Virus record (IMG/VR): IMGVR_UViG_2671180849_000023
Reading direction: 5' to 3' (one strand)
Length of the DNA: 8,248 bases
Source: a virus
Taxonomy: Duplodnaviria > Heunggongvirae > Uroviricota > Caudoviricetes
Part shown: positions 1 through 8,248 of the stretch, in pieces
How the letters are laid out: the number at the start of each line of letters is the position of its first letter
Position numbering within the stretch: the stretch's first letter is position 1
Position numbers and translations under genes: made by a program
Notes under the pieces: generated by a model
What the model was told of the DNA's origin: nothing
Seen by the model: the letters and a program-made list of their open reading frames with translations, nothing else
Databases searched by the model: none

Positions 1-324
1 ATGGAAGACGGCGTTCAGGCAATGCGCGATTATCTTGCCGGACTGGATATCGCTTCGCCAGAGCATCAGGTTCTGATGAACGTAACAGCAAAAAGCGAGG
101 TCGCTCCGTCAATTATCAAAGAAAATCTCTCATTACACTTAACCCATACGGTGAAATGGACTGAATCTCTCGATACATTTCTGAATATGCCAACCCCGGT
201 AGCTTTCCTTGAAATAAGTAATAAGCCCTATTTGGGGAATATGTTAAATGATTTTGCTGGCGTGGTTCAGCAACGAGTTATGCATTGTCGTAAAGCATTT
301 AGTGATGCAAAGGTATTCAAATAA
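1..324 (+). CDS. 3' end of an acyltransferase gene (FabD/MdcH-like malonyl-CoA:ACP transacylase fold); 5' part lies outside the window
   Basis: Open frame running from the window edge to TAA at 322..324. The C-terminal 107 aa (…VKWTESLDTFLNMPTPVAFLEISNKPYLGNMLNDF…) aligns by eye with the C-terminal region of E. coli FabD (…VQWTKSVEYMAAQGVEHLYEVGPGKVLTGLTKRI…). Family assignment is from memory, not a search. Confidence 0.45.
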   Translation: MEDGVQAMRDYLAGLDIASPEHQVLMNVTAKSEVAPSIIKENLSLHLTHTVKWTESLDTFLNMPTPVAFLEISNKPYLGNMLNDFAGVVQQRVMHCRKAFSDAKVFK

Positions 325-378
325 TTCCTGATTATTTAACTTTTATTCGCTTTCAGGATAAACGAAATCTGATATACA

Positions 379-2196
<1,818 letters not shown>

Positions 2197-2199
2197 TCC

Positions 2200-2943
2200 A
2201 TGCATCGTATAGACACGAAAACCGCGCAGAAGGATAAGTTCGGCGCGGGTAAGAACGGTTTTACCCGTGGTAACCCCCAGACCGGCACACCTGCCACCGA
2301 TCTGGATGATGACTACTTTGACATGTTGCAGGAAGAACTCTGCAGCGTGGTGGAGGCATCCGGTGCCAGCCTGGAGAAGGGGCGGCATGACCAGCTGCTT
2401 ACCGCGCTTCGTGCGCTGCTGTTAAGCCGCAAGAATCCGTTTGGCGATATCAAATCTGATGGCACGGTGAAAACGGCTCTCGAAAACCTTGGTTTGGGAG
2501 AAGCGGCAAAACGAAATGTGGGCAACGGGGAAAACCAAATCCCTGATATGTCTTTCTGGACGGTTACTGGTGGCAATGGAAATTTTGTGATTCGTCAACC
2601 TGACGGGCTAATCATTCAGATGGTTACTGTAAGTATAAGCGGTCCAGTGGCGATGAATGGAATGACTGATAATGCTTATGCCATTACAGGTTCTAATAAG
2701 TCTTATATTGCCACAGCCACATTGCCCTTTGTATTTCCTAATAAGGTGCTGGGCGTTATCCCTCTGGTATCAACAACAGCTTATGGTGGTGTATCCAGTA
2801 ATATTACAGGTTCATACGCGACGGCGGTTTGTTCTTTTGCCGCTGTCAGGGGGAATAATACGATTGTGTTCAAAGTCGACAAACCACTGAATGCAGCCTT
2901 TCCTTCAGATACCAGCGTCTCAGCGTTAATCATTGGACGGTAA
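2200..2943 (+). CDS. Phage tail fibre protein in the currently expressed orientation (constant N-terminal domain to about 2502, then a variable C-terminal domain inside the invertible segment)
   Basis: ATG 2200 with GGAG Shine-Dalgarno 8 nt upstream. N-terminus [47 protein letters not shown] is the conserved N-terminal motif of Mu/P1/P2/e14-type tail fibres. The crossover site 2468..2503 lies in-frame, encoding …[11 protein letters not shown]…. Confidence 0.8.
2468..2503. repeat. Left inversion crossover site (pix/gix/hix-like), 36-bp perfect inverted repeat with 26-bp core at 2477..2502
   Basis: tgaaaacggctctcgaaaaccttggtttgggagaag is the exact reverse complement of 4421..4456. The 26-bp core ctctcgaaaaccttggtttgggagaa is an imperfect palindrome with central TT, resembling Hin/Gin/Pin recombination sites as I recall them. 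Confidence 0.8.
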
Positions 2944-2945
2944 GA

Positions 2946-3389
2946 ATGAACTCAGTATTCTTTTCACCCGCAAGTAAAAGTTTTTATCTGCAAGAATTGT
3001 TTCCAGAATATGAGGATGCGGGAACGCTTCCTGATGATGTTATTGAAATTACCAGAGAAACATATGAGCAATTTCTTGGGCTGCATCCAGAAGGGAAAGA
3101 AATTGGCGCTGACAGTTCAGGACGGCCAATATGGATTAATTCCCCGCCGCCTTCAAAAGAGGATGAGATGCTGGCGGCTGAAATGAAAAAGATATCTTTG
3201 GTTTCAGAAGTCAATACCTACATCAATACCCATCAGTGGCCTGGCAAAGCTGCTATTGGTCGTCTGAAAGGTTACGAGCTGGAACAATATAATTTATGGC
3301 TGGATTATCTGGACGCACTGGAACTGGTTGATACCTCCAGTGCTCCAGATATTGAATGGCCTACGCCTCCGGTAGTTCAGGCCAGATGA
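2946..3389 (+). CDS. Tail fibre assembly chaperone (Tfa) paired with the expressed fibre variant
   Basis: ATG 2946 lies 2 nt after the fibre stop, consistent with translational coupling. 147 aa, with the C-terminal motif …LDYLDALELVDTSSAPDIEWPTPP typical of Tfa proteins. Confidence 0.7.
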   Translation: MNSVFFSPASKSFYLQELFPEYEDAGTLPDDVIEITRETYEQFLGLHPEGKEIGADSSGRPIWINSPPPSKEDEMLAAEMKKISLVSEVNTYINTHQWPGKAAIGRLKGYELEQYNLWLDYLDALELVDTSSAPDIEWPTPPVVQAR

Positions 3390-3966
3390 CATCCGGCGCG
3401 GTGCTGGTATCTGTTGCAGTCACCGCGTCAATGTAATCCAGCACAGCGTTAAGCCGGGTTGTTTCTGCCTGCGTCAGCTTCCGCCCGGCCTGCAATTTCA
3501 GCTGAATCAGACTAATGGAAGCCATAGCAGCATCAATCAGTGACTGGCGCCGTACTTCTGCCGCGTCTACTGCGGCGTTATGCTGTGCCTCAGTATCGGT
3601 CACCCATTTCTCACCATCCCATTTATCGTATGACGTTAACGGGGCGATAGTGGTTGTATTTTCAGGGTAATCACCCGGAAGTGTGATTTCTTTTGATTCT
3701 CCTGTTTCGGTGCTATAGACGATTTCACCGCGATGGTCTGGCACATATTCCCATGAGTTAAAATCTGCAGAACGGCAAATTGCATAACCAGCTTTATATG
3801 AGCCAGGAGCATCTAAACAGGAACATGCCGGGATACCAACACCCACAGCAAGATATTCAGTTGATGTGGAAATATATTCCCGTGTTTCACCATCATAATT
3901 ATAAACGGTAATGTCTCCGGCCTTTGTGGCGATGAGTTCATTATTTAATACAGCTTTACTTATCAT
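3361..3966 (-). CDS. Alternative tail fibre assembly chaperone (Tfa') for the silent fibre variant
   Basis: 201 aa on the minus strand, with C-terminal …LDYIDAVTATDTSTAPDVIWPELPEA paralleling the plus-strand Tfa. Its ATG overlaps the upstream cassette stop in an ATGA arrangement. It lies inside the invertible segment. Confidence 0.75.
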   Translation of the reverse strand: MISKAVLNNELIATKAGDITVYNYDGETREYISTSTEYLAVGVGIPACSCLDAPGSYKAGYAICRSADFNSWEYVPDHRGEIVYSTETGESKEITLPGDYPENTTTIAPLTSYDKWDGEKWVTDTEAQHNAAVDAAEVRRQSLIDAAMASISLIQLKLQAGRKLTQAETTRLNAVLDYIDAVTATDTSTAPDVIWPELPEA

Positions 3967-4475
3967 GCAGCCCTCACAATATAATTAAAGGCGATGTTAC
4001 GGGAGCGGGTTTCAGATGCTGTGCGAACTGAGCGAGATGCGTCGAATGTCCAGTTATAAGCGCCATAACCCTCAATAATTGCGGCTTCCTTTAGACCTGT
4101 AGATAATACTTGCCCATGTTGACTAAATGGCCCTGAACTAAGTACGTCTCTAAAAAGCTGGGTACGCCCAAAAGAACCAACAATATTCTGAATTGCATCA
4201 TTCTGTGCAGATAATAAGTTACGACCAGAGTCAATCCCGCGCCCATCATCCCAGCCACGAATAAATTCACCGCGTAAATCTGGTAATTTTAATGTTGGGT
4301 AAGCCTTTGCCAGATTTGGGTACTTTTCAGAAGAAAATACTGCTCCGTTACATTTTAGCCACCCCGTTGGCGGAGTGGCGGAAGGCCACGGAACAGGCAC
4401 ACCAACGGGTAATGCCGAACCTTCTCCCAAACCAAGGTTTTCGAGAGCCGTTTTCAAACGAGCAAATGGCATCAT
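3963..4475 (-). CDS. Alternative tail-fibre C-terminal variable (receptor-binding) cassette, silent orientation; becomes fused to the constant N-terminus at 2200 after inversion
   Basis: The minus-strand ORF begins [18 protein letters not shown]…, so the crossover-site-encoded [11 protein letters not shown] lies at its N-terminus. The rest (153 aa) differs from the plus-strand variable domain. The ATG at 4475 lies outside the right crossover site and may be fortuitous. Confidence 0.65.
   Translation of the reverse strand: MMPFARLKTALENLGLGEGSALPVGVPVPWPSATPPTGWLKCNGAVFSSEKYPNLAKAYPTLKLPDLRGEFIRGWDDGRGIDSGRNLLSAQNDAIQNIVGSFGRTQLFRDVLSSGPFSQHGQVLSTGLKEAAIIEGYGAYNWTFDASRSVRTASETRSRNIAFNYIVRAA
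4421..4456. repeat. Right inversion crossover site, 36-bp perfect inverted repeat with 26-bp core at 4422..4447
   Basis: cttctcccaaaccaaggttttcgagagccgttttca; exact reverse complement of 2468..2503. Lies 46 bp upstream of the invertase start. Confidence 0.8.
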
Positions 4476-4501: not shown

Positions 4502-5056
4502 ATGCTTATTGGCTATGTACGTGTGTCAACAAATGACCAGAACACAGATCTACAACGTAATGCGCTGAACTGTGCAGGATGCGAGCTGATTTTTGAAGAC
4601 AAGATAAGCGGTACAAAGTCCGAAAGGCCGGGACTGAAAAAACTGCTCAGGACATTATCGGCAGGTGACACGCTGGTGGTCTGGAAACTGGACCGGCTGG
4701 GGCGCAGTATGCGGCATCTTGTCGTGCTGGTGGAGGAGTTGCGCGAACGAGGCATCAACTTTCGTAGTCTGACGGATTCAATTGATACCAGTACCCCAAT
4801 GGGGCGCTTTTTCTTTCATGTGATGGGGGCCCTGGCTGAAATGGAACGAGAACTGATTGTTGAACGAACAAAAGCTGGACTGGAAGCTGCTCGCGCACAG
4901 GGACGAATTGGTGGACGTCGTCCCAAACTTACACCAGAACAATGGGCACAAGCCGGACGATTAATTGCATCAGGAGTTCCGCGCCAGAAAGTTGCGATTA
5001 TCTATGATGTTGGCGTATCGACTTTGTATCAGAGGTTTCCGGCAGGAGATAAATAA
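4502..5056 (+). CDS. pin: Serine DNA invertase of the Hin/Gin/Pin/Cin family
   Basis: 185 aa from ATG 4502, with GGGAG Shine-Dalgarno 7 nt upstream. MLIGYVRVSTNDQNTDLQRNAL… carries the catalytic serine motif VRVSTNDQ, and …DTLVVWKLDRLGRSMRHL…SLTDSIDTSTPMGRFFFHVMGALAEMERELIVERT…GRIGGRRPKL…VSTLYQRFP follows Hin/Pin closely. The track ORF extends upstream to 4292, but the conserved N-terminus sets the start at 4502. Confidence 0.85.
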   Translation: MLIGYVRVSTNDQNTDLQRNALNCAGCELIFEDKISGTKSERPGLKKLLRTLSAGDTLVVWKLDRLGRSMRHLVVLVEELRERGINFRSLTDSIDTSTPMGRFFFHVMGALAEMERELIVERTKAGLEAARAQGRIGGRRPKLTPEQWAQAGRLIASGVPRQKVAIIYDVGVSTLYQRFPAGDK

Positions 5057-5254
5057 AGACACAGCTCGTCGAATTCAAGAACGTGTGAGCCAATCTCATG
5101 ATGATTCATTATTTTCACATAGAGTCAATGACAAAAAACGGCTGCAAGGTAAACCACAACGATGGCTTTGTTAATTGATAGCGGTTTTGGTACTAAATGA
5201 TACAAATTAAAATGAATATCCTAGTGAATTACAACAATTTCAGGAGGAAATAGT

Positions 5255-5467
5255 ATGCCAAGAAAAACGCTAGAAAATTTGGTAAATGTTGCACGTCAGA
5301 CTCAGGAAATAGCGGATAAGAGAAGCCGTTTTTTCGGGTATCTTGAACAGCATGGCTTGAAGAGGAATGAGGATAGTGCTCACCTTTTTGCTATGCATTT
5401 ACGGTTGCAACACAATGAAAGAGATAATCTTGTCCATGAACTGATGTCCGGATTACATCATAAATAG
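5255..5467 (+). CDS. Hypothetical small protein (70 aa), no recognisable family
   Basis: ATG 5255 preceded by a strong Shine-Dalgarno AGGAGG (5242..5247, 7-nt spacing). AT-rich, convergent with the 114-aa/343-aa operon. Function unknown. Confidence 0.5.
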   Translation: MPRKTLENLVNVARQTQEIADKRSRFFGYLEQHGLKRNEDSAHLFAMHLRLQHNERDNLVHELMSGLHHK

Positions 5468-5501
5468 TGCATCATTCGAGCAAGAATATTATAAGACAAT
5501 A

Positions 5502-5524
5502 AACCAGCCAAAAACTGGCTGGTT
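5502..5524. terminator. Possible bidirectional hairpin terminator between convergent genes
   Basis: Stem CCAGCC (5504..5509), loop aaaaact, stem GGCTGG (5517..5522). On the minus strand it is followed by a T-rich run (TTTATTGTCTTAT); the plus-strand U-tract is weak. Confidence 0.35.
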
Positions 5525-5551
5525 GAACGTTAACTTTTTGAATTTAATCAA

Positions 5552-5896
5552 TTAACTTTGGTGTATGTCTTGGTAAGTCTCATCCGTCAGAGCCAATTTC
5601 ATGCAAATATCATCGTTAAGACTGACAATATCTTCGATCAGTTTATTGATCTCGAAATCGTTAAGTTTTGATACTGTTGCTTGAACTCGCCCCTCATCGC
5701 CAGTGGCATCAAACTTAGTCAGTTCCTTACATAATTCATCGAACCTGCTTTGTAAGGCATTTGGAATATCATCGGCTGTTTTAAGATGCCCAAGGCTAAA
5801 AACATACGAATTAATCAAGCGTTCTTGAATACTTCCATGGCCCGCAAGAGTAAGTACTGCAGTATGAAATTTTTCATGTGCATACTTTAAGGACAT
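5552..5896 (-). CDS. Hypothetical protein (114 aa), second gene of the cargo operon, no recognisable family
   Basis: ATG 5896 with GGAG Shine-Dalgarno at 5904..5907 (7-nt spacing), 51 nt downstream of the 343-aa gene on the same strand. AT-rich. No motif I can assign. Confidence 0.6.
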   Translation of the reverse strand: MSLKYAHEKFHTAVLTLAGHGSIQERLINSYVFSLGHLKTADDIPNALQSRFDELCKELTKFDATGDEGRVQATVSKLNDFEINKLIEDIVSLNDDICMKLALTDETYQDIHQS

Positions 5897-5947
5897 ATCT
5901 GGTCTCCGTGACTTATAACCTCAACCGACATAAATGGGGTTAAGTGA

Positions 5948-6979
5948 TTATTCTGAAACAATAGTGTTGAACTGACCTATAGAAACAGCACCCTTTTCAA
6001 TTACCTCTAAGTAACTGATTTTAATATGAGAGTTGTTTGACAAAGCGTCAACAATAGCTGTCAACTCATCTTGGGTGATAACATCAGCTGAAGCTTTGAT
6101 TGTGAAGCATTCGTCATTAGAGACCCTAACAACGTTAATATTAATATCCTGATTTGTTGGCCCTGTTCTGGTTACACCTTTGATGGAAAATATATCAGTT
6201 CGTTCTTTACGTTCTCTATCTACAGATTGTCGGCTGTTGTAGGTATTTAGGTCTTGTCGTGTTAGTTTCTCATTTCCTAAAGTCACGGTTTCGACAGTAG
6301 GATCAGCAGCTAATTGCTTCACTAAAGCACTTTTACCTGCTTGTCCGTGACTAGTAACTTTATCGCTAATCGCTGATTTCCCATAGATTTTATAATCTAA
6401 TGTTGCTTCTATGGCTTTGTTTATGCCATCGGATGTGGTTTTTGCAATTTCAACCTGCCGATCAGTTGCATGTCTTTCTGTTACGGCATTTTCTGAAATG
6501 TAGTGATAACCACATGTGCTGGCCGCGCCAACCATTGTGATTATAACAAGCATTTTCTGCCAGCCGTTCAGTCCAGACATAGTATCTCGCAAAAAATCAG
6601 TTACTGCGTTGATGATCTTGTCAGTGGTGCCTTCCGCATCACTAGAACCTTCGCTAATTTTAAAATTTATATCAAGTCGTTGCTTGTCTTCATTAGTCAA
6701 GCGTTGAAGATTCTGCGATCCGTATCGTATGGTTGCAAACGCCCGCTGTATCTCCTCGTTGAGCATTGACATACCAAACAACATTGCTGATGTAATTGAT
6801 GAATGATACCGCTCTCCTTTTACATTTATGTCTAAGGATGGCCAGCCTGCAAACTTTACGTTAGGGAAAATAAACTCTTTAGAATCAAGCCCCTCTCGGG
6901 CTTTCATTTCTTCCAGAAAGTTTAGAAAATCATCTTCACTACGGATCAGAAAATCAATCGAATCCACAGTAGCTTCCAT
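5948..6979 (-). CDS. Hypothetical protein (343 aa), first gene of the cargo operon, with one hydrophobic segment (aa 143..161); no recognisable family
   Basis: ATG 6979 with AAGGA Shine-Dalgarno 7 nt upstream; a long uninterrupted ORF. GC counted at 20/60 in each of 5941..6000 and 6001..6060, against 38/60 in smpB (7981..8040). Confidence 0.7.
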   Translation of the reverse strand: MEATVDSIDFLIRSEDDFLNFLEEMKAREGLDSKEFIFPNVKFAGWPSLDINVKGERYHSSITSAMLFGMSMLNEEIQRAFATIRYGSQNLQRLTNEDKQRLDINFKISEGSSDAEGTTDKIINAVTDFLRDTMSGLNGWQKMLVIITMVGAASTCGYHYISENAVTERHATDRQVEIAKTTSDGINKAIEATLDYKIYGKSAISDKVTSHGQAGKSALVKQLAADPTVETVTLGNEKLTRQDLNTYNSRQSVDRERKERTDIFSIKGVTRTGPTNQDININVVRVSNDECFTIKASADVITQDELTAIVDALSNNSHIKISYLEVIEKGAVSIGQFNTIVSE

Positions 6980-7034
6980 ATGAATATCCTTATTAAATTC
7001 TCATTCGGTTACTGTTTATTGTTGACTGATCAAT

Positions 7035-7063
7035 AAAAAAGCCCGCAATTTGCGGGCTTCTTT
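7035..7063 (-). terminator. Rho-independent terminator downstream of ssrA (minus-strand orientation)
   Basis: Stem GCCCGCA (7041..7047), loop att, stem TGCGGGC (7051..7057). On the minus strand the hairpin is followed by TTTTTTATTG; on the plus strand by the weaker TTCTTTC. Confidence 0.55.
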
Positions 7064-7188: not shown

Positions 7189-7551
7189 TGGTGGAGCTGG
7201 CGGGAGTTGAACCCGCGTCCGAAATTCCTACATCCTCGGTACTACATGCTTAGTCAGTCTTTACATTCGCTTGCCAGCTGCGGACGGACACGCCACTAAC
7301 AAACTAGCCTGATTAAGTTTTAACGCTTCAACCCCAGGCAGGGCTTCCACGCGATCTCTTTTGGGTTTGACCTCTCTTGATCCCCGTCCTAAGAGCGGAG
7401 GCTAGGGAGAGAGGGCTCTAAGCAGGTTATTAAGCTGCTAAAGCGTAGTTTTCGTCGTTTGCGACTATTTTTTGCGGCTTTTTACGAGGCCAACCGCCCC
7501 TCGGCATGCACCTTGGGTTTCGCAAATCCCGTCGAATCCAGAATCAGCCCC
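7189..7551 (-). ncRNA. ssrA: tmRNA (transfer-messenger RNA, 10Sa RNA), 363 nt
   Basis: Reverse complement begins GGGGCTGATTCTGGATTCGACGGG and ends …GGGTTCAACTCCCGCCAGCTCCACCA (tRNA-like acceptor/T-arm with encoded CCA). The internal tag reading frame is at 7430..7462. Confidence 0.95.
7430..7462 (-). other. tmRNA tag-peptide reading frame (resume codon GCA through stop): ANDENYALAA*
   Basis: Minus-strand codons GCA AAC GAC GAA AAC TAC GCT TTA GCA GCT TAA, read directly from the sequence. This is the proteolysis tag of E. coli and close relatives. Confidence 0.9.
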
Positions 7552-7765: not shown

Positions 7766-8248
7766 TTAACGGTGGGCGTTTTTCATGATACGTGCTTTAT
7801 CCACCTGCCATTCGCGTTCTTTGATATCTGAACGTTTATCGTGCTGTTTTTTACCTTTGGCGACGCCGATTTTCACTTTGCACCAGGCATTTTTCCAGTA
7901 CAGGGAGAGCGCCACTACGGTATAGCCTTCTCGATTGACGCGACCGTACAATGAGTCCAGTTCGCGCTGGTTGAGAAGTAACTTGCGGGTACGGGTAGGA
8001 TCGCACACCACATGCGTGGAGGCCACGGCCATTGGCGTGATGTTAGCGCCAAACAGAAATGCCTCTCCGTCACGCAGAAGGACGTAGCTGTCGCTGATAT
8101 TGGCTTTTCCTGCGCGCAGGGATTTAACCTCCCAGCCTTGCAGGGCAAGTCCCGCTTCGAACTCTTCTTCGATAAAGTATTCGTGACGGGCGCGCTTGTT
8201 AAGCGCGATGGTCGCTGAACCAGGTTTATGTGCTTTTTTCTTCGTCAT
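7766..8248 (-). CDS. smpB: SsrA-binding protein SmpB (160 aa, complete)
   Basis: ATG at the window edge (8248..8246), stop at 7766. [56 protein letters not shown]… is the canonical SmpB sequence, upstream of and co-oriented with ssrA as in E. coli. Confidence 0.95.

What the first reader, a model, noticed from the sequence alone, without database searches (positions are those of the whole stretch)
5552..6979. Uncharacterised two-gene AT-rich cargo operon between the invertase and ssrA: candidate new anti-phage or exclusion system
Two co-oriented minus-strand genes (343 aa and 114 aa, 51-nt gap, each with its own Shine-Dalgarno) match no family I recognise: no nuclease, ATPase, HEPN, TIR, SIR2, methyltransferase or toxin-antitoxin motif. 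They sit at the distal end of a phage tail-fibre/invertase module, next to the ssrA integration hotspot. In related invertase-bearing elements this slot holds defence or DNA-modification cargo (e14: pin then mcrA; Mu: gin then com/mom). GC is about 33% in sampled stretches, versus about 63% in nearby smpB, pointing to a separate horizontal origin.
Basis: partly seen in the sequence, partly recalled or inferred. Interest (0 to 1): 0.8.

Follow-up and report, generated by a model that had tools for sequence, protein, structure and literature searches.

The report
Prophage membrane-protein moron beside ssrA
The 343-aa gene belongs to a large, unstudied family of prophage accessory genes that usually sit just behind the phage repressor, a spot where phages keep genes that shield their host from other phages; the 114-aa gene is a local add-on, so this is a single-gene exclusion candidate, not a two-gene system.

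Summary
Both minus-strand genes are real: 343 aa and 114 aa, a 51-nt gap, a Shine-Dalgarno each, and purifying selection on both. They lie in an AT-rich block between pin and ssrA. The block also holds a third gene of 70 aa.

The 343-aa protein matches no Pfam, NCBIfam, PADLOC or PDB entry. It belongs to phrog_6191 and to a large family (839 clusters at 50% identity). It is predicted to be a single-pass membrane protein: a conserved N-terminal domain, one hydrophobic helix and a C-terminal OB-fold.

In 28 of 41 informative loci outside the ssrA clade, its homologues sit as a single gene directly behind a LexA-type cI repressor, with a terminator after them. This is the slot that holds rexAB and bstA. 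The family also occupies other accessory slots, and its GC is below its neighbours in all seven contexts measured, so it is a classic moron.

The 114-aa gene accompanies only near-identical copies (E. coli and two short metagenome contigs). It is absent from the 82% Cronobacter orthologue and from all other homologues.

Best reading: a stand-alone, lysogen-expressed membrane protein, probably for superinfection exclusion. The function is untested.

The parts
5948..6979 (-). 343-aa gene, a member of an uncharacterised prophage moron family (phrog_6191)
   Evidence: ORF. phrog_6191 at E 7e-38, full length. 76 close and 839 distant clusters. dN/dS about 0.07.
6575..6979 (-). Codes for the N-terminal alpha/beta domain (residues 1-135), the most conserved part and inferred to be cytoplasmic
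   Evidence: AF2 model. Highest conservation, 30% mean pairwise identity across 52 distant members. No invariant catalytic set. G111 followed by S/C112 is nearly invariant.
6494..6559 (-). Codes for the single hydrophobic helix (residues 141-162), the predicted transmembrane anchor
   Evidence: Top Kyte-Doolittle 19-residue window is 1.41 here and averages 1.83 in 31 homologues, always at the same position. Weak profile match to the MotB TM plus linker (E 0.004).
5960..6214 (-). Codes for the C-terminal OB-fold barrel (residues 256-340), inferred to be periplasmic
6987..6991 (-). Shine-Dalgarno AAGGA of the 343-aa gene, 7 nt before the ATG
   Evidence: Read from the sequence.
7036..7062 (-). 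Hairpin plus U-run terminator between ssrA and the 343-aa gene, conserved in Cronobacter
   Evidence: Fold -17.4 kcal/mol, z -4.8. The same element is seen in L003.
5552..5896 (-). 114-aa gene: small, acidic (pI 4.9), all-helical, restricted to this lineage
   Evidence: ORF. Only 6 close clusters. dN/dS 0.15. AF2 pLDDT 50, helical. pI.
5904..5907 (-). Shine-Dalgarno GGAG of the 114-aa gene, 7 nt before the ATG
   Evidence: Read from the sequence.
5502..5524 (-). Terminator after the 114-aa gene, lying between it and the convergent 70-aa gene
   Evidence: Found by the scan. Fold -14.6 kcal/mol, z -5.2.
5255..5467 (+). 70-aa gene, the third gene of the AT-rich block, with a strong AGGAGG Shine-Dalgarno
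   Evidence: ORF. Sequence. Present in the same 46 genomes. Absent from L062 and L063.
5650..5675 (+). Secondary pix-like recombination site inside the 114-aa gene
   Evidence: 16 of 26 bases match the true pix arm at 2478-2503. The L010 inversion junction lies exactly at its centre.
7189..7233 (-). 3' end of ssrA, the att core that stays attached to the 343-aa gene when other islands insert
   Evidence: Homology to the window starts at about 7203-7233 in L003-L005, L010, L018 and L022, where other elements lie upstream.

Best explanation
The 343-aa gene is a stand-alone prophage 'moron', that is, horizontally swapped accessory cargo. It encodes a single-pass inner-membrane protein with a conserved N-terminal domain (inferred cytoplasmic), one transmembrane helix, a helical hairpin and an OB-fold barrel (inferred periplasmic). 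In its usual home it lies directly behind the cI repressor, with no terminator between and a terminator after it. It would therefore be made in lysogens together with the repressor, as rexAB and bstA are. Its most likely job is to protect the lysogen from other phages. I favour superinfection exclusion at the membrane, with the variable periplasmic half binding an incoming phage's ejection or tape-measure proteins or the inner-membrane entry route, as P22 SieA and HK97 gp15 do.

The window copy is an att-proximal remnant. It has been fixed next to ssrA since before E. coli and Cronobacter lineages exchanged it, and in E. coli it has picked up a 114-aa gene downstream. That gene is probably co-transcribed but is not a conserved partner.

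Shown: gene anatomy, family size, genomic slots, the GC deviation, selection, and the lack of a conserved partner. Inferred: membrane topology, lysogenic expression, and all of the function.
For: Slot. 28 of 41 loci outside the ssrA clade with enough upstream sequence have an HTH plus Peptidase_S24 repressor directly upstream on the same strand, involving about a dozen different repressor sequences. These span Escherichia, Yersinia, Pseudomonas syringae and Moraxella. In three lambdoid loci scanned there is no terminator between cI and the gene and a strong one right after it. The literature names the cI-N interval as a mosaic hotspot that holds rexAB and bstA and is transcribed with the repressor (PMC8585504).

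Cassette swap. Stx2a phages with the same cI (98% identity) carry DUF3024 (PADLOC candidate PDC-S43, E 7e-42) plus a NYN protein between the same boundaries.

Moron signature. GC is 4-13 points below the flanking genes in all seven contexts measured. The family also sits in the Mu G-to-protease slot, which holds anti-CRISPR loci in Pseudomonas Mu-like phages (PMC3993853). It is also found after Q, inside tail modules and next to att or int.

In the phage collection, all six full-length matches are lambdoid coliphages; the seventh, Moraxella Mcat17, has the gene behind an S24-type repressor.

Membrane protein. The hydrophobic helix is conserved in position in 31 of 31 homologues. There is no N-terminal signal peptide before a 140-residue folded domain. 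The C-terminal half is more variable than the N-domain. The OB-fold is acidic, with pI 4.9.

Single-gene unit. No 114-aa or 70-aa homologue is found in any other context. In Cronobacter, homology ends at the stop codon.
Against: No phenotype of any kind is known, and no paper mentions the family. There is no similarity to any known exclusion or defence protein.

The topology is inferred. Flanking charges are ambiguous, and the window protein's own hydrophobicity (1.41) is borderline.

The cI-N slot and other moron slots also hold non-defence cargo, so position alone is not proof. The strongly conserved N-domain has no counterpart in the Sie proteins named here.

In the window the gene has lost its cI, and I found no convincing promoter between the ssrA terminator and the ATG, so expression of this copy is unproven. 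Frameshifted copies exist (L009, L024).
Confidence: 0.4

Rival explanations
1. Abortive infection. The conserved cytoplasmic N-domain senses a phage cue, and the protein then oligomerises through its TM helix and helical hairpin to depolarise the membrane. This would be a one-protein functional analogue of RexA plus RexB.
For: Same slot as rexAB and bstA, both Abi systems. A membrane anchor plus a well-conserved intracellular domain.
Against: No homology to RexA or RexB. Only one TM helix. Membrane-disrupting Abi effectors do not usually carry a folded extracytoplasmic region of about 180 residues with an OB barrel, and this model leaves it unexplained (my knowledge). No toxicity data.
Confidence: 0.2
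2. A lysogenic-conversion or prophage-maintenance factor unrelated to phage defence, for example modulation of an envelope process, a transporter, stress signalling or induction control.
For: Moron slots also carry bor, lom, toxins and effectors (established knowledge). The OB-fold resembles periplasmic metal and sugar binders such as SilF/CusF, YgiW and AB5 B subunits. Loss of prophage phi458 changes biofilm and virulence, though no gene was assigned (PMC9701743).
Against: The tight and repeated linkage to cI across distant hosts resembles that of rexAB, bstA and stk, which are defence genes. The alternative cassette in the same slot includes a PADLOC defence candidate. The hosts range from plant and insect-associated bacteria to gut and airway bacteria, which argues against a niche-specific virulence role.
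Confidence: 0.25
3. One reading: the 343-aa and 114-aa genes form an obligate two-gene defence or toxin-antitoxin-like system.
For: Co-oriented, 51-nt gap with no terminator, a shared downstream terminator. The pair stays together in two different downstream contexts, pin/70-aa and SRAP. Both genes are in the same 46 E. coli genomes.
Against: The 114-aa gene has only 6 close clusters against at least 839 for the partner. It is absent beside the 82% Cronobacter orthologue and beside all other homologues. In one genome it is split by a Pin inversion while the 343-aa gene is intact.
Confidence: 0.08
4. In this window the genes are inert leftovers of a decayed prophage with no current function.
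For: The prophage is reduced to about 5.5 kb and is cut by an IS3. No promoter was found. Only 0.85% of complete E. coli genomes carry it. Frameshifted copies occur.
Against: Low dN/dS for both genes. Intact Shine-Dalgarno sites and terminators. ssrA-adjacent synteny is kept between E. coli and Cronobacter at saturated dS with dN 0.11.
Confidence: 0.07

Closest known systems
Lambda RexA/RexB (the cI-rexA-rexB operon)
   Same: Same genomic slot (directly behind cI, before N, closed by a terminator). Includes a membrane component. Expected expression in lysogens.
   Different: One gene rather than two. One TM helix against four in RexB. No sequence or profile similarity (hhalign probability <1%). 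It has an OB-fold domain.
BstA (Salmonella prophage BTP1 and relatives)
   Same: A single gene immediately downstream of the prophage repressor, with a family spread across Gram-negative prophages (PMC8585504).
   Different: No sequence match to any PADLOC defence model or any annotated PHROG family, and no Pfam domain at all. By my knowledge BstA is a soluble DNA-associated protein, whereas this one has a predicted membrane anchor.
Inner-membrane superinfection-exclusion proteins (P22 SieA, HK97 gp15, T4 Imm)
   Same: Prophage or phage-encoded inner-membrane proteins carried as morons. This is the mechanism I favour by analogy (PMC10883804).
   Different: No homology (the PHROG scan hits only phrog_6191). 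It is much larger and has a conserved 135-residue N-terminal domain and an OB-fold. No exclusion phenotype is known.
e14 pinE-mcrA and Mu gin-com/mom cargo slot
   Same: The window's module is colinear with e14 ymfQ-stf-tfa-tfa'-stf'-pinE followed by cargo and then att. The cargo in e14 is a defence gene.
   Different: The cargo proteins are unrelated. The element sits at ssrA rather than icd. The 343-aa gene is linked to ssrA even where the pin module is absent (Cronobacter).
Anti-CRISPR/accessory locus of Pseudomonas Mu-like phages (between G and the protease/scaffold gene)
   Same: A distant family member (P0229) sits in exactly this interval, with a 228-nt upstream gap and GC 12 points below its neighbours (PMC3993853).
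   Different: A 342-aa membrane protein rather than a small soluble Acr, with no aca-like regulator next to it.

Membership tests
phrog_6191 (PHROGs, function unknown) | Full-length match to the family profile | tested here: met
   E 6.8e-38, residues 7-340 against profile positions 5-331 of 338.
Moron (prophage accessory cassette, in the sense of Hendrix and colleagues) | Base composition differs from the flanking phage genes | tested here: met
   GC is lower than the neighbours in 7 of 7 contexts, for example 51% against 63-66% in L065 and 40% against 50-54% in L015. In the window it is 39% against 50% for pin.
Moron (prophage accessory cassette, in the sense of Hendrix and colleagues) | Present or absent between otherwise near-identical phages, with sharp boundaries | tested here: met
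   PhiR12 and Stx2a phages share cI at 98% identity. The cassette is swapped between 23 nt after the cI stop and the terminator.
Moron (prophage accessory cassette, in the sense of Hendrix and colleagues) | Own terminator and own promoter | tested here: inconclusive
   A terminator follows the gene in L007, L015, L011 and, after the pair, in the window. No convincing promoter was found in the window. In the cI slot the gene probably uses the repressor promoter.
Lambda RexAB | Homology to RexA or RexB | tested here: not met
   hhalign of the 52-sequence family profile against RexA and RexB gives probability 0.6% and 0.4%.
Lambda RexAB | Location downstream of cI in the repressor operon | tested here: met
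   Met for 28 of 41 homologue loci but not for the window copy, which lies next to ssrA.
Known anti-phage defence systems (PADLOC-DB v2.0.0) | Match to any model of a known or candidate system | tested here: not met
   No hit for any of the three window proteins. No recurrent hit among 52 distant members. Newer DefenseFinder models could not be run.
Superinfection-exclusion proteins (SieA, gp15, Imm type) | Inner-membrane localisation | tested here: inconclusive
   One conserved hydrophobic helix, mean Kyte-Doolittle score 1.83 across 31 homologues, 1.41 in the window protein. This is prediction only.
Superinfection-exclusion proteins (SieA, gp15, Imm type) | Blocks phage DNA entry without blocking adsorption | not testable with these tools
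   Needs infection assays.
Superinfection-exclusion proteins (SieA, gp15, Imm type) | Sequence homology to a described Sie family | tested here: not met
   The PHROG scan at E<=1 returns only phrog_6191 plus two chance-level hits. No Pfam hit.
Two-gene defence or toxin-antitoxin module | The two genes co-occur across diverged homologues | tested here: not met
   The 114-aa gene is found only beside copies that are near-identical where the gene or fragment is present. It is absent from all 50+ other loci.
OB-fold nucleic-acid-binding proteins (SSB, PriB type) | OB barrel fold | tested here: met

The most novel reading that the evidence does not exclude
The 343-aa family (phrog_6191; at least 839 clusters at 50% identity across Gammaproteobacteria) is a new, widespread single-gene prophage immunity protein with a previously unseen architecture: a cytoplasmic alpha/beta domain, one TM helix and a periplasmic OB-fold. 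It would detect or block incoming phage genomes at the inner membrane. That would make it a third major occupant of the rexAB/bstA slot, with a mechanism unlike either.
Probability: 0.4. Interest if true: 0.65.

Novelty: new member of a known kind. Interest (0 to 1): 0.45.

Why it matters
The cI-N interval of lambdoid prophages has already yielded RexAB and BstA. This analysis identifies another large, wholly uncharacterised protein family that occupies that slot and several other classic accessory slots in prophages of Escherichia, Yersinia, Enterobacter, Klebsiella, Pseudomonas, Halomonas and Moraxella.

It is a single gene of about 1 kb with cultured carrier phages (phi458, PhiR12) and a well-studied carrier strain (E. 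coli 042), so the exclusion hypothesis can be tested directly. If confirmed, it adds a membrane-anchored, OB-fold-bearing protein to the small set of known prophage exclusion mechanisms. It would also give a name to a gene now annotated as 'hypothetical' in every record and source name I saw, apart from a fold-based 'T2SS GspM containing protein' label in the PhiR12 records.

If the gene proves not to be defensive, it would show that this slot also carries non-defence cargo.

Tried and rejected
- **Family libraries.** Pfam, NCBIfam and PADLOC scans of the three window proteins gave nothing. Pfam scans of 31 close members and Pfam and PADLOC scans of 52 distant members gave only scattered chance hits such as DUF6495, BrxC and DegS.
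- **PDB by sequence.** Nothing except a weak MotB TM-plus-linker match (E 0.004). The TM helix lacks the MotB aspartate, so I rejected this as homology.
- **114-aa protein.** The AF2 model had pLDDT 50, so I ran no fold search on it. The PDB profile search was empty.
- **Enzyme idea for the N-domain.** Only G55 is invariant. A near-invariant S/C at residue 112 is suggestive, but there is no conserved His, and the Lys position alternates with Arg, so I did not pursue it.
- **Rex homology.** Rejected.
- **P2 hotspot cargo.** The identical locus in FDAARGOS_1287 lies beside P2-like tail genes, but the tail-fibre/pin module next to the cargo is e14/Mu-like (Gp48/YmfQ).
- **Distant-alignment locus search.** It failed because no stretch was conserved enough.
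- **Literature.** Searches by accession, phage name and slot found no study of this family.
- **Promoter.** None convincing upstream of the 343-aa gene.
Full report
**1. The window**

The window is E. coli chromosome. On the minus strand it carries smpB (7766-8248) and ssrA (7189-7551, tag ANDENYALAA). To the left lies a short prophage remnant:
- an IS3-family element (387-1600);
- a truncated Mu-Gp48/YmfQ-like gene (1585-2196);
- a tail-fibre gene and an assembly gene (2200-3389);
- the alternative pair on the other strand (3361-4475);
- a Pin invertase (4502-5056).

The invertible segment is bounded by perfect 36-nt inverted repeats at 2468-2503 and 4421-4456. The whole module is colinear with e14 of K-12, ymfQ-stfP-tfaP-tfaE-stfE-pinE-mcrA-att. 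The stretch between pin and the att site is therefore the slot that holds the restriction enzyme McrA in e14.

**2. Checking the observation**

Both ORFs exist as described: 5948-6979(-) of 343 aa and 5552-5896(-) of 114 aa, separated by 51 nt.

Each has a Shine-Dalgarno 7 nt before its ATG, AAGGA at 6987-6991 and GGAG at 5904-5907.

A strong hairpin plus U-run (7036-7062, -17.4 kcal/mol, z -4.8) separates ssrA from the first gene. The 51-nt spacer has no significant structure (z -0.07). A second terminator (5502-5524, z -5.2) follows the 114-aa gene. Co-transcription of the two genes is plausible.

I found no convincing promoter in the 50 nt between the upstream terminator and the ATG.

The two genes are 39.5% and 38.6% GC (GC3 34%), and smpB is 51.6% (GC3 57%). 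The block is AT-rich relative to its surroundings, but less so than claimed.

The AT-rich block (about 5057-7030, 38.4%) also contains a third gene. It is 70 aa, at 5255-5467(+), with an AGGAGG Shine-Dalgarno, and it converges on the 114-aa gene.

All three genes are present, at 99% identity or more and in one copy, in the same 46 of 5426 complete E. coli genomes. These include strain 042.

Both genes of the finding are under purifying selection. For the 114-aa gene, dN/dS is 0.15 (dS 0.49). For the C-terminus of the 343-aa gene it is 0.07. Against Cronobacter, dS is saturated with dN 0.11.

**3. What the proteins are**

None of the three proteins matches Pfam, NCBIfam or PADLOC.

The 343-aa protein is a full-length member of phrog_6191, function unknown (E 7e-38). 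A word-indexed search found 76 clusters across Enterobacterales, all named 'hypothetical'. A profile search of 1.84 billion representatives found 839 clusters at E<=1e-3 and 495 at E<=1e-10. Nearly all of the 150 best hits listed are 315-360 aa. Members occur in Pseudomonas, Halomonas and Salinicola, and Moraxella phage Mcat17 carries one.

Neither 31 close nor 52 distant members share any Pfam family, and the 52 distant members share no PADLOC family.

AlphaFold2 with a 31-sequence alignment (pLDDT 74.8) gives this architecture:
- an N-terminal alpha/beta domain (1-135);
- a hydrophobic helix (about 139-162);
- a disordered linker;
- a helical hairpin (181-224);
- a confident C-terminal beta-barrel (256-340).

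The hydrophobic segment is present at the same place in all 31 aligned homologues, with a mean Kyte-Doolittle score of 1.83. There is no N-terminal signal peptide before the 140-residue folded domain. I therefore infer an N-in/C-out single-pass inner-membrane protein.

Across 52 distant members the N-domain core is the best conserved region (30% pairwise identity). The OB-fold stands at 19% and the linker and hairpin at 12-15%. No conserved catalytic set is evident.

The 114-aa protein has only six close homologue clusters. It is acidic (pI 4.9) and predicted helical, but at pLDDT 50 the model is unusable.

**4. Where the family lives**

This is the main new result. In phage phi458, the PhiR12 phages, Yersinia prophages, several metagenomic lambdoid contigs, a P. 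syringae prophage and Moraxella phage Mcat17, the homologue (24-70% identical) is a single gene. It lies directly downstream of, and co-oriented with, a LexA-type cI repressor (HTH plus Peptidase_S24). Where an N homologue was identified, the gene lies upstream of it.

I scored all fetched loci with a repressor HMM. Of 41 loci outside the E. coli/Cronobacter ssrA clade that have enough upstream sequence, 28 show this arrangement, involving about a dozen different repressor sequences. Many of these loci are near-duplicates, so the count is not a count of independent events.

In the three lambdoid loci scanned, no terminator lies between cI and the gene, and a strong one follows it. This is the layout of lambda cI-rexA-rexB.

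The BstA paper states that the cI-N interval is a mosaic hotspot holding rexAB and bstA, and that it is transcribed with the highly expressed repressor (PMC8585504).

Stx2a-converting phages share the PhiR12 cI at 98% identity. Between the same two boundaries they carry instead a DUF3024 protein, which matches PADLOC candidate PDC-S43 (E 7e-42), and a NYN-domain protein.

The family also turns up in other well-known accessory slots:
- between the Mu G-like gene and the protease gene of a Pseudomonas Mu-like prophage, with a 228-nt upstream gap; this is the interval that holds anti-CRISPR loci in such phages (PMC3993853);
- after antiterminator Q;
- after a gpK-like tail gene;
- after a baseplate hub gene;
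- at the predicted prophage edge next to an integrase.

In all seven contexts where I measured it, its GC is 4-13 points below that of its neighbours. It is a textbook moron. In the phage collection, all six full-length matches are lambdoid coliphages; the seventh match, Moraxella phage Mcat17, also has the gene behind an S24-type repressor.

**5. The window copy and the 114-aa gene**

In Cronobacter the 82% orthologue also lies immediately after ssrA and the same terminator. When another island has integrated at ssrA, it lies after the att copy of the ssrA 3' end instead. Homology to the window stops exactly at the stop codon of the 343-aa gene.

The same displacement is seen in E. coli loci L010 and L018, where an integrase island sits between ssrA and the gene. 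The 343-aa gene is thus an old att-proximal remnant. The 114-aa gene is not part of the conserved unit.

The pair does stay together in two short metagenomic contigs, where an SRAP gene replaces the 70-aa/pin side. Within this narrow lineage the two genes therefore travel together. No 114-aa or 70-aa homologue accompanies any other family member.

**6. Mechanism**

Shown:
- a single-gene accessory cassette;
- a large family;
- strong, repeated linkage to the prophage repressor;
- purifying selection;
- a predicted single-pass membrane architecture with an OB-fold.

Inferred:
- expression in lysogens from the repressor promoter;
- N-in/C-out topology;
- a host-protective function.

I favour superinfection exclusion at the inner membrane. 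The more variable, acidic, probably periplasmic half would engage an incoming phage's ejection or tape-measure proteins, or the entry route, as P22 SieA and HK97 gp15 do. The large folded extracytoplasmic region is hard to explain for a pure membrane-disrupting Abi effector.

My estimates are about 0.35-0.4 for Sie, 0.2 for a Rex-like abortive mechanism, 0.25 for a non-defence conversion function, and under 0.1 each for an obligate two-gene system or an inert remnant.

There is no homology to RexA or RexB or to any PADLOC defence model or annotated PHROG family.

**7. Verdict**

This is cargo in a defence-prone slot, and the large gene is a good exclusion or defence candidate. However, it is a single-gene module, and the 114-aa gene is a lineage-specific neighbour.

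The kind of element, a prophage moron in the repressor operon, is well known. The protein family is uncharacterised and unrelated to known occupants, so I rate it a new member of a known kind. Interest is moderate, because the candidate is easy to test and widespread but has no phenotype yet.

Noticed in passing
window 5650-5675; L010 4530-4640 and 5740-5850: The 114-aa gene contains a secondary pix-like site (TCTCGAAATCGTTAAGTTTTGATACT). In one E. coli assembly (GCA_042170565.1) the segment holding pin, the 70-aa gene and the 3' end of the 114-aa gene is inverted. The junction lies exactly at the centre of that site, giving a truncated and fused 122-aa ORF. None of 5426 complete genomes has this junction.
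   Followed up: partly
window 5255-5467 (+): A third AT-rich gene of 70 aa (basic, His-rich, strong AGGAGG Shine-Dalgarno) converges on the 114-aa gene. It is present in the same 46 genomes, has no family hit, and is absent from the metagenomic contigs that carry the 343/114 pair.
   Followed up: partly
window 2468-2503 and 4421-4456: Perfect 36-nt inverted repeats with a gix/pix-type core bound a 1.99-kb invertible tail-fibre segment. The segment carries two alternative fibre C-termini and their assembly proteins, colinear with e14.
   Followed up: yes
window 1-1600: An IS3-family element (orfA 1253-1600, orfB 387-1133) truncates the YmfQ/Gp48-like gene. The ORF at 1-324 has no Pfam hit. In other strains that share this IS junction it is replaced by the ypjA/ehaD autotransporter region.
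   Followed up: partly
L071 1680-3026 (Stx2a-converting phage Stx2_EH1965): Phages with the same cI as PhiR12 carry a DUF3024 protein (PADLOC candidate PDC-S43, E 7e-42) plus a NYN-domain protein in the slot. This is a clean cassette swap with the family gene.
   Followed up: yes
L067 5486-7047 and L068 901-2462 (Halomonas): A Phage_tail_S (Mu G/P2 S-like) gene plus a family member persist as an isolated pair with no other phage genes, next to a 719-aa CoiA_N protein and a 920-aa SNF2 helicase. This may be a defence-island-like setting.
   Followed up: no
L003 10157-11188 (Cronobacter): About 1.1 kb downstream of the ssrA-linked orthologue lies another 343-aa gene at only 32% GC. It is unrelated to the family and has a weak PADLOC LeoBC hit (E 1e-4).
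   Followed up: no
L009 124-1156; L024 1270-2300: Frameshifted copies of the 343-aa gene, split into 112+214 aa and 165+124 aa, occur in some E. coli-type loci. The gene is therefore sometimes lost.
   Followed up: partly
L001 8776-11957 (E. coli FDAARGOS_1287): In the strain with an identical cargo block, the invertible region is flanked by two recombinase genes and abuts P2-like tail genes (FI to ogr). The locus is therefore a composite of different prophage remnants.
   Followed up: no
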